From the NCBI GenBank assembly GCA_965112155.1, contig OZ218099.1: a DNA stretch of 64,000 nt. One strand, written 5' to 3'. Source of the stretch: Podarcis liolepis. Lineage: Eukaryota. Positions 555 to 43,113 of this stretch are shown here, one piece after another. The notes under the pieces are model-generated. The model searched no databases. It was not told where the DNA came from and saw only the letters and a program-made list of their open reading frames with translations. Position 1 is the first letter of the stretch. Each line of letters begins with the position of its first letter. Made by a program: the position numbers and the translations under genes.

Positions 555-726
555 CAATGGGCATGCCACCCCAATATATATTCCAGCACAAAGAGGTATC
601 CTTCTTGTGGTTTTCAGGGAAAAAGAAAATGAAGAACCCAACAAAAATGCCCTAGTGTTTACCAAAATGTAAAATAACAGAGATGTCATTTTAGAATCCT
701 ACTAATTCAAGTTAGGGTCAGAAAAC
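555..726 (+). repeat. 172-bp intronic direct repeat, copy 1 (NPTX1 intron upstream of exon 1002)
   Basis: Ungapped match to 3210-3381 with about 12 substitutions by eye. Confidence 0.95.
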
Positions 727-1001
727 CTGATCCTGTGTCCTTGAAGTTAAAATAAGCATTGTCATTATCTCCACTTACTGGAGTTTTAAGAATCTAGAAT
801 GCTTGCCACCCCATCAAATCTTCATCTCTCTATCAATGGGAACCAGAAGGTTCTGTGGTTCATGTGAAAATTGAATGTATTACATAACAGGGCAGGTTCG
901 GGAAGACCACCAGCTTGGTGAAGTCTCTAGTACTGTACAGTTCATGCTTTTGTTGTTATAGGGCATGCCTGACTGCAGCAATCTCCCTCTTCTCTCACCA
1001 G

Positions 1002-3209: not shown

Positions 3210-3381
3210 CAATGTGCATGCCATCCTAATATATATTCCAGCACAAAGAGTTATCCTTCTTGGGGTTTTCAGGGAAAAAGAAAATGAAGAACCCAACAAA
3301 AATGCCCAAGGGTTTTCCAAAATGTAAAATAATAGAGATACCGTTTTAGAATCCTACTAATTCAAGTTAGGGTCAGAAAAC
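3210..3381 (+). repeat. 172-bp intronic direct repeat, copy 2 (last NPTX1 intron)
   Basis: Ungapped match to 555-726. Confidence 0.95.
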
Positions 3382-3463: not shown

Positions 3464-3685
3464 GACACACTTGGAGGTGGATTTGATGCCACCCAGGCAT
3501 TTGTGGGAGAACTAGCCCACTTCAACATCTGGGATCGGAAGCTCACCCCAGGGGAGATCTACAACCTGGCCACGTGCAGCACCAAAGCCCTGTCTGGTAG
3601 TGTCATAGCCTGGTCCGAGACCAACATTGATATTTATGGTGGAGCCACCAAATGGACATTTGAAGCCTGCCGTCAGATCAACTAA
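3464..3685 (+). CDS. NPTX1: Neuronal pentraxin 1, last coding exon to stop codon
   Basis: Acceptor ttctctcttcaag ends at 3463. Encodes DTLGGGFDATQAFVGELAHFNIWDRKLTPGEIYNLATCSTKALSGSVIAWSETNIDIYGGATKWTFEACRQIN*, in frame with the previous exon (GQEQ|DTLGG). The ACRQIN C-terminus is typical of NPTX1. Confidence 0.96.
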   Translation, partial: DTLGGGFDATQAFVGELAHFNIWDRKLTPGEIYNLATCSTKALSGSVIAWSETNIDIYGGATKWTFEACRQIN

Positions 3686-6012
3686 AAAATGCTGCTCTTC
3701 CCCGCCCTTCCCATTCCAAATCCATTTAACCCTTGGTTAACAGACATTCTCCTCACCCAGGAATGAATTATGGACAAATCTATTTCCTTTCTCTCTTCTG
3801 TCTTTCTTTTAAAAAAATATCTTCTTTGTTTGTTCTAAAGAATCAATCACATTTTTTTTTTAATCTAGGAGACTTGGAGTTTTTCAGTCAACTCTAAGGC
3901 AACCTGGGACTTTGCAACCTTACAATTTTGAAGAGGGGGTTCATTGTCCCCCACCCCCACCCCTCTCTCCCACTCCCTCTTTTGTCCCTTTCTCCTTTGG
4001 ATCGAGACTTTATTATCTTTTTTCCATTTTGCTTTATGAAGTCTCATCATGAATGGTCTGATTTTTCTGGCTTGCCAACTTTGTTTCAATGCCTGAGTGC
4101 CTTTGGGCTGGTGCGACTCTTTCAGCACATTTGTCTTCATTTGCATATACTTTTTAAAGGATATCTCTATATTCCTACTCTACTCTATGTCTTTTAAGCA
4201 GCCAGTCACCTGTGGGCAGATATTTATTTTTTATTACGAATTATTCTCTGAGTGATAGGAGGATAAACGCTTTTTGAGAGACGCATGATGGTGGCTTGAC
4301 TAGGAGATTTGAGGGGTGGTGGTGGGGGGTAGGACTGTTCTCTGAAATTCTTCTGGTCTCTCATTGCTCCCCCACCAATTGTGTAAACCTCTGGCTATGG
4401 CCGGAGCAAACAGAGCCATCTTTGCCCCCCAAGGGTACATGTGAGACTCAGGAGCATTGCCAGCTCAAGGATCCAAGACGACTTGTCCAGATCCTTGGTC
4501 TTTTGTAGGAGCAGCTGGCTCCTACCTATTTTAATGGAGCTGCAGAGCAGCTCCCTTCCCTTGTCTGCCTTCATTTTGCTGTACAGCCTAAAGGATCTGC
4601 CTCTGTTAGCCATCACAAAGCCTATGCGTAGTCCAGAAAACCTTCCTTCCACAGGCATTGATTACTGCTTCTCCCAAAACTCTGTGACCCAAAGATGGCA
4701 GAAAATCACCCGGTCCATCCCCTTACCTCTCCCTTCCTGGTTCCACAGCAGGCTCCTACTTGCCTTCCCCTCCAAAGGTAATGCACCCTGGGCCTTTCCC
4801 AAGAATACTTGGCTTGAAGATGGGACTATTTTCTTATGACTTTATGAGGCATTCCCAAACCCTTACCAATGCTCCTTTACTTTCACTAAGAGCCATAAAC
4901 CTGAAGGGCTGGGGTAGGGGGGAGTTTTAGTGGTAGTCGGATGCAAAGCATGTGGTTGCAGTCCGATTTCCATGGCCATACCGCTGAGCTGAGATTTTTG
5001 CCTTTTAAATACAAATTGGGTTCACTGCAGGTGGCAGGATGTATAGCGCAAGGAGCCTTGCCTGCCCTGTGCTTATTGGACCCAATGAGATTTGAGGTAT
5101 ACTTCACTTTCATAAAGGTTCATAGCTCTTCCTTTGTGAAAGGAATAAGGAACTGCTTGAGAGAGGTTTTAAGCAAATGTGTCAAGAAACTGAATAAAGT
5201 GCAAATCCTGGTTTTGCTCCAAAGCCCCAGGGAATTAAGAAGAGGCTGTGACCTCTCCATGCATCTGTTTTGCCCAATAACCAGAAACAGAGCCTGCACT
5301 ATGTTTTGTTTTTGTTTTTTTAAAAAAGAACAGCACAAGGGATACCTAACAGACTGTATGCCGAGCCTTCAGATAAACCTCTGCAAAAAGGCAAAATGTG
5401 TGTTTCTTATCGTGCTATAGACGGAGCTGTTTGCATCCTGAAGGGCACCAACTATTTTAGGAGGCTGGGAAGGTGTTGCGTTTAGCCTTTCTTGCAAGGA
5501 TTGTGTTTTGGTTAGATAAGAGTGCCTATTTGACCACCTTTAGTGACAATGGGTTGCATAGTGCTCTTTATAGATTCCGTCCTAGTTTATGGTACCCTTA
5601 GATTTCCTGCAGGCTTATAGGGAAGGCAAGGGGTGTACTGTCGTTTCTTGCATGTTTTCAGTAGGTGCCTCAATCGTGTTTTACCTGGTCTAATGCTTGC
5701 CTGCTTGCATGGGCTAATGCAGAGCTGTGGGGGGTTTGCTGAGTGATAGTTCATGCTTTAAAAACAATTCAAAAACTAAAGTCATCCAAGCACGATAGTA
5801 TAGGTCAGGCATGGCTGGAAAAAGGTGGCTAATGATACAGCATTCTTCCCCATGATAAACAGCACTACACATTTTTGTATTAAAAAAGAGAAGAAGAGCC
5901 ACCAGTTAAAATATAGGTAACTTTAAAAGAAATCAATCCATGGGAACTGCTCCACTCAGCTTTGTCTTTTCCTATAAATCCTGGAGAAGCCAGAGCTCTT
6001 AATCCAGTAGTT

Positions 6013-6203
6013 GTGCTGTCCTAAAAAAGCAGCTATAGGAGCTGTTCTTTAAGCACTTCTGCGGTGCAACGTACACTGTGCTGCTGAATCAGTCCTGTTG
6101 ATGTTTACCAACCTGGATGTACTTGGAGCTGTCCCTTCAGCACCACCATGGGTGGGTATTTTCCATGCCAGACTCCCTGGGAGCTGTCCGTTCAGCACCA
6201 AGG
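6013..6203. promoter_or_regulatory. Cluster of REST/NRSF RE1 half-sites in non-canonical arrangement
   Basis: GGAGCTGTCC-c-TTCAGCACC at 6125-6144, GGAGCTGTCC-g-TTCAGCACC at 6180-6199, a degenerate GGAGCTGTTC-t-TTAAGCACT at 6038-6057 and a lone GTGCTGTCC at 6013-6021. Confidence 0.5.
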
Positions 6204-7749
6204 CTTCTCTAGCGAGCACAGAATAAATAGCTGATCCAGCCAAACTCAAGCCTACTGCTTAATACGATTGATGTCCCCTCTTGCACTGAATAATACATGC
6301 CTCTCTCAGGTAATGCCCTTTTATAAAAACATACATACAAGTAAAGAGCACTGCACAGGCAGTGCATGTGTTTGCCTAAAGACTGTCTGACAGTTCCCAA
6401 AGGCCTCCTTCTAAAGGAGGTGTTTTCACTGGCCATTTACACAGGTGTAGTTCCACTGACGAATATAAGGTCACACCAGTTTAGGTAATCAGCGAAGCAT
6501 TCTCCGGCAAGTGTTCCTAAACATGGGTAACTTAGAAGTCCTATTCACTTCCCTAGGACTTAACTTACAATCAGTGTATAGAAATCACAGCTCAAATGTG
6601 ATATTAGTTGAATCAGCATTTTCTCTCCCTTGAAGGGTTAGCTACTCTTTGAAATGTCAAGCCTTTCTGCTTTTGTAAAACAAAATACACACAAATTATT
6701 TCTCTTGTTGTAAAAGGAGTTTACTACCAAGAAAGGTATTTTTATTAGAAAAGAATATATGTAGAAAAACAGGTATTCCCTGAAAAAAATACTTTTGAGC
6801 TACAGATGAAGGATAAAAGGATGATAAAGCTTATTTTGAGATAAATAATATTTTATATGGTTTCTTTTTTTAAGAAAAAGAATTTCTGGTTTGTACTAAT
6901 AGTCTGCAGCCATCACCCCTTTAAATGACCTCGCCCTCTCTCATCCTGGTCAAGGAGTTTTTCTTGGCTGTGAGTGAAAAGGGAGGCGTGAAGGATAGAA
7001 TTTGTGAGGCTCACTGAGCCATTTTGACCAACCCTAAAGCTGTGGCAAATGAATATGCAGCATGGATGGGCATGTAATAAGCAGTTCAAGGTCGATGTTG
7101 CACTATTGAAAGGTTGCTGCTCATCAGATATTGAAGTGGGTCATGTGACCACCCTATGAAATCACAATGCTAAAGCACTAGGAGAGGGGGTTGGAAATCT
7201 GTCTAAACATAAACAAACCCAGCCTAGTTATCTTACTTTTAAATCTTGGCTCAGGGCAGCATATTTTAAGCAGTGCTCTTTAAAAGCAAAACCAACCAAT
7301 CCCAACAAAATTCTACCTTGTAAGATCGATCTGCTAACGACCCTTATTGGAAACCTTCTTGTAACTAATAATGAATGTTAAGTGTAAACTGATGAAGGGG
7401 GGAAAAACATGTCAAGGTAAATAAATCCAGTCCAAATTGCGCAGGATTTGCCAAAATAAAAAAAATAAAAAGGGTGATAGTGATAAAATTGTATATACTG
7501 TACAGCGTGAAAGAGGATAAATGTTTCTTGAGTTGTCATTCTGTTAACCAAAGCTGTATATTTTTCCTATTTCTTGCTATCAGTCTTTACTGGGTTTTGA
7601 ATGAGTTGATGTTATATCTTACATCCACAGTCCACATCAGCAATTCTTAAAATGCACTGTTTCTACTGGTTCTTCATGCTGTTTTTTTTCCCTTTCCTTT
7701 TTTCATTTTATTGCTTAAACTACATGAATTGTTGAATTTATTTTTACAC

Positions 7750-7755
7750 AATAAA
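7750..7755 (+). terminator. Candidate distal polyadenylation signal (AATAAA) of NPTX1
   Basis: AATAAA preceded by U-rich sequence at the end of the AU-rich block, after which base composition changes. Confidence 0.6.
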
Positions 7756-9189
7756 GAGTGATGAAAGACAACACGGCTGCAGTCATTTCCCCCACCAAAC
7801 TTTCCTCTCCCAGAAAGGACCCCAGTACAGCCAGGAACTCCCAAAGTCAGCTCCACTTGGGAAGAAGCATGTCTTGTGCTGCTGAGTCGGCAGCAGCAGA
7901 GATCTCACACCTGCAGCATAGATTGTGGCCTGCTGCCATGGTTCTGCAAAACCAGTCCTGAAAACAACTGCATATGCTCTCTAGCCAAGTGAACCAGATG
8001 ACCATTGCCTGTGGTAATCTCCCTTTTCCTGCCAGTTCTTCTGTCTAAACAATTAGGGTTGCCAGCTTTTGCTGCTTTGGGATGCCCAGTTTTGCTTTCA
8101 TCTCTATCCAGCTGATCTCCTGCACATACCTCTTACTTGTTTTTTTTCTGGCCCAACCCTATATTGGGATAAGAGGACTGAGCAACATATCTTCTCATCC
8201 CCTGTCTCAATGACTTGAACCCTTTACAGGGCTGTAAACAAATTGGTTGATCCCTTGGCGCTTGTCTCATGCAGCCTGCCCCTGTTCTTGACCTCTTTCG
8301 CTGGCACTGGTATTTCAAGAGACCAGAGGGACAAAGCAAGAGGGGTGAACTAGCATTTCAGTGATGATATTGCGTATCTCCCTCTCAGCAGCAGAGACTA
8401 GGAGATGCAAGTGAGGGAACACCAAAGAAGTGGGTGGGATCTCCAAGTGTGATTTAGGACAGCTATGGTCATGCTACACAGACAAGCACTAGTCCTATTA
8501 TGTCCCTGAGAGCCCCAGAGACTCCACATCAACTTCCACTTTGGCAGAGCCAGTTAATGACATCTCTGAAAAGTCACCTCCCGTCTCTCTCTTTCATCCC
8601 TGCCTTCTGGTTGTCAGGGAAACAGCATCTTGAAACCTGGCTCTCCTTCATTATGTGCATGTGACCCTAACGTAAAGCCTCTACTCTCTAAGAGAGCTTG
8701 ATGTCAGAGTTTGCCCTATTTCTTTTTTAAATGGTTCTATGCACATTGCTCACTAAGGAGGAGGGATTTTGGTGGAGTGAGAGGAAGGGAGAAGGCCTCT
8801 TATTCTTAGGAAGCAAAGCAGTGTATATTTCTTTCCTGAGGAATAATTCCAAACAAATCTGCAAATGCTTGGAGCACATGCAGCCAGAATTTCAGCAACA
8901 GGTGCAAATTTAATTTATTTACAATATTTGTATGCTGTCCAACAACAAATGTTCTCTGAGCGGTTGACAGTCAGCTTAAAACCAGCAAAAGGAAAACGCC
9001 AAGCACAACATAAAAGCAAATTAAATAAAGCTACCAGCACTAAAACATTAATACAACGCAGCATAACAAAACACACACAAAGATTAAAACACCCGGGCAA
9101 ATAAAAAGGTCTTCACCTGGAACCAAAAATTAAAACCTGGATGCCAGCAAGCCTACCTGTGGAGGGCAGTGGCAATGAGGATGAAATGG

Positions 9190-38423: not shown

Positions 38424-39151
38424 CAGTGGTACCTGGGGTTACAGACACTTCAGGTTACAGTGGTGCCTCGCAAGACGAAATTAATTCGTTCCGCAAGTTT
38501 TTTCTTCTTGCGAGTTTTTCGTCTTGCGAAGCACCGTTTACCATAGGAATGCATTGAAAATCAATTAATGCGTTCCTATGGAAACCGCTTGCCAGGCTTG
38601 CAGTGCGGAGAAGGGCTTTTCTCCCCACCGCAAGCCTTCAGGACAGGTACGGGAACAGAGGGGAAGGGGTGCAGCGCTTCTCCTCTGTTCCCGGGGCTTG
38701 CGGTGGGAGGAGGGTTTTTCCTCCCCACCGCCAACATTCAGAACAGCATTCTGAATGTTGACGGTGGGAAGGAAAACCCTCCTCCCACCGCAAGTCTTCA
38801 GGACAGCCATCCAAAGGCTGGCGCGGGGAGAAGGTCTCTCCGCCCCACCGCCAGCCTTCAGAGGAGCCTTCCGAAGCCTGGCGGCGGGAGGAGGGCTCTC
38901 CGCCCCACCGCCAGGCTTTGGAGCAGCCTTCCGAAGGCTGGCGGTGGGGCGGAGAGACCTCCTCCCGCCGCCAGCCTTCGGAGCAGCCTTCCGAAGCCTG
39001 GCGGTGGGGCGGAGAGCCCTCCTCCCGCCGCCAGCCTTCGGAGCATCCTTCCGCAGTGGCAGCGGGAGGCCCTATTAGCTAAAGTGGTACCTCAGGTTAA
39101 GAACAGTTTCAGGTTAAGAATGAATTAAGTTCTTAACCTGAGGTACCACTG
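38424..39151 (+). mobile_element. Tigger-like MITE with a second mariner-type element inserted at an internal TA
   Basis: TA|CAGTGGTACCT...AGGTACCACTG|TA outer ends. The inner element begins TA|CAGTGGTGCCTCGC at 38458 and lacks its other end. Confidence 0.82.
38701..39053. repeat. 60-bp GC-rich palindromic tandem array (~6 units)
   Basis: Successive 60-nt lines align. Each unit contains ccagccttcgga-gcagcct-tccgaaggctgg dyad symmetry. Confidence 0.9.
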
Positions 39152-42641: not shown

Positions 42642-43113
42642 TGTCACGGTCCAAGTCAAAGTCCCGGCTGAGGATGTCGGGACCGGGGGCAAGATGGCAG
42701 GGTGGGAGCAGGAACAAGAGTCCAGAAGCCAGAAGTCAGGAAGCCAAGAGTCTGAGGGTAAGAGAGCCGGGAGTCAAAAAGCCAAGGGTCCGAGGGTCAG
42801 GAAGCAAGGAGTCACGAAGTCGAGGGTCTGAGGATCAAGAAGTCAAGGGTCCGGGGATCCAGAAGCAAGGAGTCACAAAGTCAAGGGATCAAGGATCAAG
42901 AAGCAAGGAACCAAGGAGCCAAACGCAGTAAGACAGGAAATGTGTTGATGTGGCAAAGAACCAAAGGGAAATGCTGACCTTATATCCCTTCCCGGCTCTT
43001 GCCACCAGGTGCTGTGAGTTACCAATCAGCCTCACCTTGCCTCCTCAGAATAAACTTAGGAAGGCCTCAGTCCTGCTGGTCACAGGGCCTGGCTCCTGTA
43101 CACACTCCTGACA
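42642..43113 (-). mobile_element. Solo LTR (Gypsy-like) with internal tandem repeats
   Basis: TGTCA...TGACA ends, 5-bp TSD CAGTA (42637-42641, 43114-43118), TATA-like GATATAAG on the minus strand near 42980. Confidence 0.85.

What the first reader, a model, noticed from the sequence alone, without database searches (positions are those of the whole stretch)
6013..6203. Repeated rearranged REST/RE1 half-site motif in the NPTX1 3'UTR
Seen: the 20-mer GGAGCTGTCC-N-TTCAGCACC occurs twice, 55 bp apart (6125-6144, 6180-6199), with unrelated flanks. A degenerate third copy is at 6038-6057 and an extra GTGCTGTCC at 6013. Established: canonical RE1 is TTCAGCACC-nn-GGACAGC(G/T)CC, and REST represses neuronal genes. 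Here the right half is reverse-complemented and placed before the left half with a fixed 1-nt spacer. Inference: a homotypic cluster of non-canonical REST sites, silencing a neuronal gene from within its last exon. Recurrence of identical geometry without flanking homology argues for selection on the motif rather than simple tandem duplication. This is the best candidate for an undescribed regulatory grammar in this window.
Basis: partly seen in the sequence, partly recalled or inferred. Interest (0 to 1): 0.7.

Follow-up and report, generated by a model that had tools for sequence, protein, structure and literature searches.

The report
Half-flipped REST silencer sites in NPTX1
Downstream of the nerve-cell gene NPTX1 lie repeated copies of a binding site for the repressor REST with one half flipped in place; this exact arrangement recurs across the genome, often beside nerve-cell genes, its likely human counterpart is bound by REST in published data, and it likely helps keep such genes off outside neurons.

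Summary
The 20-mer is a 'divergent' RE1 (REST site), a class already named in the literature. What stands out is its geometry. In this genome the same two half-sites in this orientation occur 33 times within 0-30 bp; 32 have a 0-2-bp gap and 19 a 1-bp gap (reversed-pattern control 0). Flanks are unrelated between loci. Convergent, flipped, left-left and right-right arrangements show no such peak. With the following A (29 of 32 sites), the 1-bp form is a canonical RE1 with bases 1-10 inverted in place. Genes were found at 15 of 32 loci, mostly neuronal, in both orientations. In a published human table 17 of 41 divergent rows have a 1-bp gap, all bound in 18-23 of 23 REST ChIP-seq sets, including the likely NPTX1 orthologue (22 of 23). 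Silencing is not shown: a reporter study found no repression by divergent sites, but pooled all gap lengths. Verdict: an under-described variant of a known REST site class. The NPTX1 pair may stem from an old 55-bp duplication.

The parts
6180..6200 (+). Divergent RE1, copy 2: reversed right half, 1-bp gap (G), left half, conserved A; likely orthologue of the human REST-bound site
   Evidence: Exact match; following A; the human oligo has the same spacer base, 1 mismatch over 23 nt and a shared 8-mer downstream (compared by eye)
6125..6145 (+). Divergent RE1, copy 1 (1-bp gap C, conserved A)
   Evidence: Exact match; in-place inversion of a canonical RE1
6038..6057 (+). Degenerate divergent RE1, copy 3 (3 mismatches)
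6012..6021 (+). Lone reversed right-half-like word, no left half beside it; weak
   Evidence: Read; 7-mer core occurs 19 times in the window
6080..6088 (-). Lone left-half-like word (1 mismatch) on the other strand; weak
   Evidence: Read directly; not tested further
6090..6199 (+). Possible decayed 55-bp tandem duplication holding copies 1 and 2
   Evidence: Spacers 15 of 35 identical, p about 0.02-0.03; motifs 19 of 20 identical
3464..3685 (+). Last coding exon of NPTX1 with stop codon
   Evidence: Pfam Pentaxin; best PDB match neuronal pentraxin-1, 6ype, E 5e-42
3686..7770 (+). Inferred long 3'UTR of NPTX1 (candidate poly(A) signals at 6222 and 7750)
   Evidence: Signals; extent is inference, no read evidence

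Best explanation
The 20-mers are DNA sites made of the two RE1 half-sites with the left half flipped in place and a 1-bp gap, which REST likely binds here as it does at the likely human counterpart, and which would help repress NPTX1 outside neurons. Shown: the motif, its genome-wide spacing rule, its left-with-right pairing, its position near neuronal genes in either orientation, and published REST occupancy of human sites of the same form. Inferred: one REST molecule reads the right half with zinc fingers 3-5, finger 6 leaves the groove and bridges about 8 bp (as modelled for the 8-bp-gap class in PMC8096226), and fingers 7-8 read the flipped left half backwards in the same 10-bp footprint it has in a canonical site. 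Also inferred: this mode is weaker, so it needs near-perfect halves and gains from local copies; bound REST would recruit SIN3/CoREST (recalled) and damp the promoter about 8.6 kb away. My odds: REST site 0.9; contributes to repression 0.65; single-molecule mode 0.55 if REST binds.
For: 19 exact 1-bp-gap sites in 1.574 Gb, reversed-pattern control 0; naive expectation 0.005. Gap scan 0-30: 33 hits, gap 0:3, 1:19, 2:10, 5:1. Flanks share nothing at the motif but the motif. Controls over gaps 0-30: convergent 12 hits, at most 2 at any one gap; flipped 12, none below 7; left-left 1 site, gap 20; right-right 1 site, gap 21. The same halves in canonical order give 28 sites at gap 2 among 100 listed of 101, so the 0-2-bp divergent form (32) is as common as the canonical form for these exact words. 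Inverting 10 bases in place turns both copies into canonical 21-mers. A follows in 29 of 32 against 11 of 28 canonical gap-2 sites (counted by eye). Genes at 15 of 32 loci: NPTX1, Nova-1, KCNK3, CACNG3, a Kv3 channel, another Kv channel, FAM155 family, HRH3, Rab39 family, CAMK2N, a DHHC enzyme, a GPCR, a bHLH and two CRMP-family first exons named from recall only; 6 sense, 9 antisense. 15 of 29 loci are CpG-island-like against 1 of 127 window tiles. Human: 17 of 41 divergent rows have gap 1, bound in 18-23 of 23 sets; gap 1-2 median 22.5 against 7 for gaps above 2, p 1e-5. None of 7 gap-1 peaks checked appears in the canonical table. Row 1180 (chr17:80468133-80468667, 22 of 23) has the site at the peak centre; the same motif is in hg19 oligo chr17:78442036-78442236, 8.2 kb below the NPTX1 5' end given in PMC3140517, against 8.6 kb from the start codon here. 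No canonical-order site with fewer than 3 mismatches in 84 kb around NPTX1.
Against: PMC9903721 tested 54 divergent elements and found no significant repression; only 8-9-bp gaps repressed; gaps up to 100 bp were pooled. For the human NPTX1 element the readable rows (GM12878 only) show only mild low expression: 1.92 and 1.98 against a median of 2.90 for scrambled controls, rank 5 of 56 rows in one of 400 parts; this is not a test, since the scramble left the divergent site intact. No binding, chromatin or RNA data for this species. 17 of 32 loci gave no gene, only the 5-9 longest ORFs per locus were scanned, two gave non-neuronal hits (weak EED insertion at L023, reverse-transcriptase fragment at L033), and no random-locus control for gene type was run. 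Two gap-2 sites overlap coding sequence (L045, L050), where codons may constrain them. The ninth base C is kept in 32 of 35 divergent sites against 28 of 50 canonical and 58 of 79 long-gap sites; PMC8096226 ties that base to an engaged finger 6, which fits two molecules better than a bridging finger 6. The human peak has one strong site, not a cluster.
Confidence: 0.7

Rival explanations
1. Two REST molecules bind head to head: one holds the right half with fingers 1-5, the other the extended left half with fingers 6-8, and a contact between them fixes the 1-2-bp gap.
For: The far end of the left half is more conserved than in canonical sites (C9 in 32 of 35; next A in 29 of 32), as if finger 6 were engaged there; half-site-only binding is reported.
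Against: No left-left or right-right head-to-head sites at short gaps, so the dimer would have to be strictly asymmetric; PMC8096226 reports one REST molecule per site for the sites it tested. Long-gap sites also keep C9 more than canonical ones (58 of 79 vs 28 of 50), so the conservation may just compensate for a weaker geometry.
Confidence: 0.3
2. REST binds the sites but they do not silence NPTX1: they are weak tuning or docking sites, or act on another promoter.
For: Pooled divergent class not repressive in the reporter assay; site is 8.6 kb from the start codon; NPTX1 also has a convergent-type site in its 5' region.
Against: Retention beside neuronal genes here and in human; many sites lie within 2 kb of a start codon; the human element scores low with the site intact (weak).
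Confidence: 0.22
3. The copies are remains of a 55-bp tandem duplication or of a transposon and have no function.
For: Upstream spacers 15 of 35 identical, p about 0.02-0.03.
Against: Motifs 19 of 20 identical while spacers decayed; 17 other loci carry the exact motif with unrelated flanks; human counterpart bound by REST. A duplication may explain the copy number, not the motif.
Confidence: 0.03
4. The motif acts in the mRNA (a small hairpin, since it is an imperfect inverted repeat, or microRNA or protein sites).
For: It lies in an inferred 3'UTR here and 3.1 kb past the Nova-1 stop in the sense direction; the two halves share a CAGC core and could pair.
Against: 6 sense against 9 antisense relative to nearby genes, many upstream of the start codon; folding z -1.61 and the copies pair with other parts, not within themselves; no Rfam match in 3600-8200.
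Confidence: 0.03

Closest known systems
Divergent non-canonical RE1/NRSE (PMC11025195; PMC9903721; 'atypical orientations' in PMC2573930)
   Same: Same two half-sites, 5' ends facing each other; both halves are the exact words listed in the human table; the likely human NPTX1 site is listed there.
   Different: Those papers define the class over gaps of 0-49 or under 100 bp. In the text I read none names a 1(-2)-bp optimum, the added A, the in-place inversion or the left-with-right-only pairing. Their figures were not visible to me (Fig. 2d of PMC11025195 counts forms by gap).
Canonical 21-bp RE1 (JASPAR MA0138.2)
   Same: Same bases, same 21-bp footprint, same right half and position 11.
   Different: Positions 1-10 are reverse-complemented in place, so a continuous zinc-finger wrap cannot read it in the standard way (inference).
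Long-gap non-canonical RE1 (7-11 bp; finger 6 flipped out, PMC8096226)
   Same: Two separately read halves with a strict spacing rule; shows that REST can bridge about 8 bp.
   Different: Halves keep their order and direction; shown to repress in the reporter assay, whereas the divergent form is not yet.

Membership tests
Canonical RE1 | Left half, 2-bp gap, right half on one strand | tested here: not met
   Left half is on the opposite strand from the right half; gap 1
Long-gap non-canonical RE1 | Same order and strand, 7-11-bp gap | tested here: not met
   No such site with up to 4 mismatches near 6000-6200
Divergent RE1 | Both half-sites match strongly | tested here: met
   Copies 1 and 2 carry the words scored 15.46 and 16.37 in the human table; copy 3 has 3 mismatches and was not scored
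Divergent RE1 | Halves on opposite strands, pointing apart, within 0-49 bp | tested here: met
   Gap 1; same layout as rows typed 'Divergent'
Divergent RE1 | Occupied by REST in cells | not testable with these tools
   No ChIP for this species; likely human orthologue in a peak in 22 of 23 sets
RE1 silencers | Represses transcription in a REST-dependent way | tested here: inconclusive
   Pooled class negative; human element mildly low with no proper control
Transposon or tandem repeat | Copies share flanks beyond the motif | tested here: not met
   All-against-all blastn of 19 loci: matches at the motif end within about 38 nt; only weak local spacer similarity
Known structured RNA element | Rfam match or unusually stable fold | tested here: not met
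   0 matches at E up to 1; z -1.61

The most novel reading that the evidence does not exclude
REST has a third, conserved binding mode besides the canonical and long-gap ones: a 21-bp site whose first ten bases are inverted in place, read by one zinc-finger array that makes a U-turn and runs its two modules in opposite directions along the DNA. It is the main REST site of a set of neuronal genes (NPTX1, NOVA1, KCNK3, Kv3 and TARP genes) that canonical scans miss, and it does silence them, contrary to the pooled reporter result.
Probability: 0.35. Interest if true: 0.75.

Novelty: new variant of a known kind. Interest (0 to 1): 0.52.

Why it matters
Standard RE1 scans miss these sites, and a reporter study concluded that only 8-9-bp-gap variants silence. 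If the 1-2-bp divergent form is a real mode, neuronal genes with strong REST peaks but no canonical motif gain a defined site, variants in those sites become interpretable, and the published negative result can be retested by splitting existing data by gap. A zinc-finger array reading two modules in opposite directions would also bear on how long zinc-finger proteins recognise DNA.

Tried and rejected
Read evidence: none obtained, so 3'UTR extent, expression and conservation in close relatives stay open. The run search listed 20 rows holding part of 5700-6500, with no RNA holder listed on record; not used as evidence. Tandem Repeats Finder: nothing at the site. RNA structure and Rfam: negative. 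Symmetric-dimer model: rejected, no left-left or right-right short-gap sites. T versus G in the right half: 32:2 in divergent against 28:10 in canonical gap-2 sites, p 0.03; weak, not relied on. C9 test to tell one molecule from two: confounded by compensation. ORFs of 130 aa or more in 8000-64000 gave no recognisable gene by eye (not scanned against families). Reporter values for other human divergent sites: the main results table of PMC9903721 (mmc7) and two more files were too large to read, and four readable files were cut; these may hold the decisive numbers. NPTX1 not found in the supplements of PMC4055426. PMC6672685 not held. Ten paper searches found no paper naming a 1-bp divergent rule or printing six versions of the site; subscription journals and figures are not covered. 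Earlier scan findings: none. No protein-complex job was run, since the tool takes no DNA chain.

Full report
Observation. The two exact 20-mers are at 6125-6144 and 6180-6199 and a 3-mismatch copy is at 6038-6057; 100 shuffles of the window gave a mean of 0.01 matches. The upstream gene is NPTX1: its last exon (3464-3685) matches human neuronal pentraxin-1 at E 5e-42 and NPTX2 at 2e-24. The sites are 2.4-2.5 kb past the stop. AATAAA signals lie at 6222 and 7750; placing the sites in the 3'UTR is inference, as I have no read evidence. The flanks are not wholly unrelated: the 35 nt before copies 1 and 2 share 15 bases, p about 0.02-0.03, so the pair may come from an old 55-bp duplication in which the motif stayed 19 of 20 identical while the spacer decayed.

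Genome-wide rule. The exact motif occurs 19 times in the 1.574-Gb genome, at 18 loci, with 0 for the reversed-pattern control; a naive expectation is 0.005. All-against-all blastn of these loci shows no shared flanks at the motif, so it is not a transposon. Letting the gap vary from 0 to 30 gives 33 hits: 3 at gap 0, 19 at 1, 10 at 2, 1 at 5. Other arrangements of the same halves do not peak: convergent 12 hits, 8 of them spread over gaps 1-5; flipped 12, none below 7; left-left and right-right head to head one site each, at gaps 20 and 21. In canonical order the same words give 101 hits; of the 100 listed, 28 are at gap 2, 58 at 7-11, 5 at 1 and 9 at 19-22. So the known REST spacing classes are visible in this genome, and the 0-2-bp divergent form is as frequent as the canonical form for these words. 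The tool notes that its counts are lower bounds.

Anatomy. An A follows the left half in 29 of 32 exact sites, against 11 of 28 canonical gap-2 sites (by eye). With that A, the reverse strand of copies 1 and 2 becomes a canonical 21-bp RE1 when its first ten bases are inverted in place. The simplest description is therefore a canonical site whose left module is flipped within the same footprint. The ninth base of the left half is C in 32 of 35 divergent sites, 28 of 50 canonical and 58 of 79 long-gap sites. Second, degenerate copies within 75 bp were seen at 4 of 20 other loci scanned (L021, L032, L038, L039).

Nearby genes. I fetched about 10 kb around every exact 0-2-bp site, 31 loci besides the window, and scanned the 4-9 longest or most coding-like ORFs of each against Pfam. 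Genes were found at 15 of 32 loci. Named by best PDB match: NPTX1, Nova-1, KCNK3, CACNG3, a Kv3 (KCNC) channel, FAM155 family, HRH3, Rab39 family. Named by Pfam only: a second Kv channel, CAMK2N, a DHHC enzyme, a class A GPCR, a bHLH. Named from recall only: two CRMP-family long first exons (one search found no PDB match). The motif is sense to the gene in 6 and antisense in 9, and often upstream of the start codon, which marks a DNA element. 15 of 29 loci are CpG-island-like against 1 of 127 window tiles. Limits: 17 loci gave no gene, L023 and L033 gave non-neuronal hits, two gap-2 sites overlap coding sequence, and no random-locus control was run.

Human data. PMC11025195 (whole text read; supplement 4 searched) names this orientation 'Divergent'. 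Of its 41 divergent rows, 17 have gap 1, 5 gap 2, 6 gap 0 and 13 other gaps; gap-1 sites are in peaks seen in 18-23 of 23 ChIP-seq sets; gap 1-2 median 22.5 against 7 for larger gaps, p 1e-5 (two peaks give two rows each). The first 15 of 31 convergent and 15 of 34 flipped rows have scattered gaps. None of 7 gap-1 peaks checked is in the canonical table. Row 1180, chr17:80468133-80468667, has the site at the peak centre and is bound in 22 of 23 sets. The same motif is in the hg19 oligo chr17:78442036-78442236 of PMC9903721, 8.2 kb below the NPTX1 5' end at 78450404 given in PMC3140517 (passages); here copy 2 is 8.6 kb from the start codon. Orientation to the gene, the spacer base and a downstream 8-mer agree with copy 2 (by eye). 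By recalled coordinates, seven more human rows fall at NOVA1, KCNK3, KCNC2, KCNS2, CACNG3, CAMK2N2 and NALF2, matching genes or families found here; those names come from no call. The organism of this window was not determined.

Does it silence? PMC9903721 (passages; supplements searched, some cut or too large) found no significant repression for 54 divergent elements, pooled over gaps below 100 bp. The human NPTX1 element was in the library, but its scramble changed another 21-mer and left the divergent site intact; reference and scramble did not differ with four enhancers in GM12878. With En19 the values were 1.92 and 1.98 against a median of 2.90 among 56 neighbouring scrambled controls, rank 5. 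That is a hint, not a test. Within 84 kb around NPTX1 no canonical-order site has fewer than 3 mismatches, so this cluster is the strongest REST candidate of the gene by sequence.

Mechanism. PMC8096226 (abstract and passages) assigns fingers 3-5 to the right half and 7-8 to the left, with finger 6 flipping out to bridge 8-bp gaps; the words 'divergent' and 'convergent' do not occur in it. In the flipped site the entry point of finger 7 lies about 8 bp from the end of finger 5, within that bridging range, so one molecule could turn back on itself (inference, not modelled). The lack of left-left and right-right pairs fits this. The strong conservation at the far end of the left half fits two molecules instead, but could be compensation for a weaker mode. 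I put 0.55 on one molecule and 0.3 on an asymmetric dimer.

Novelty. The orientation class and the human site are on record; PMC2573930 (passages) already mentions atypical orientations. PMC4055426 and PMC2824720 (passages) do not treat it. Ten searches found no text naming the 1-2-bp rule, the in-place inversion or its conservation; figures, subscription journals and unreadable supplements could hold it. I rate it a new variant of a known kind, interest 0.52.

Noticed in passing
G000 genome-wide: Canonical-order half-sites show a further small peak at gaps 19-22 (9 of 100 listed; none at 12-18 or 23-30), one helical turn beyond the 8-11 class; several end in CAGT, AAGT or CAAT before the right half. 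One contains an internal canonical site.
   Followed up: no
L044:7534-7554 (G000:C2:29757534), about 55 nt upstream of the NPTX1 start codon: A convergent-type site (left half, 2 bp, reversed right half with one mismatch) in the NPTX1 5' region.
   Followed up: partly
L038:4930-5002 (CACNG3 5' region); L021:4961-5053 (past the Nova-1 stop); L032:4956-5005; L039: Other same-strand pairs of divergent sites, 52, 73, 30 and 38 bp apart; the human peaks recalled as CACNG3 and NOVA1 also list a second half-site.
   Followed up: partly
L050:4940-4960 and L045:4981-5001: Gap-2 divergent sites overlapping the start codon of an HRH3-like gene and the reading frame of a bHLH gene: possible dual-use coding sequence.
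   Followed up: no
L030 and L037: Two paralogous CRMP-family first exons (names recalled) each have a 1-bp divergent site nearby, which would date the form before their duplication.
   Followed up: no
window 600-730 and 3230-3380: A stretch of about 150 bp appears twice, in two NPTX1 introns, with high similarity (seen by eye).
   Followed up: no
window 38700-39069 and 42715-42922: GC-rich 30/60-bp tandem array and a degenerate 7/23/61-bp array.
   Followed up: no
window 6222-6227: An AATAAA 22 nt after copy 2 could be a proximal poly(A) signal for NPTX1.
   Followed up: no
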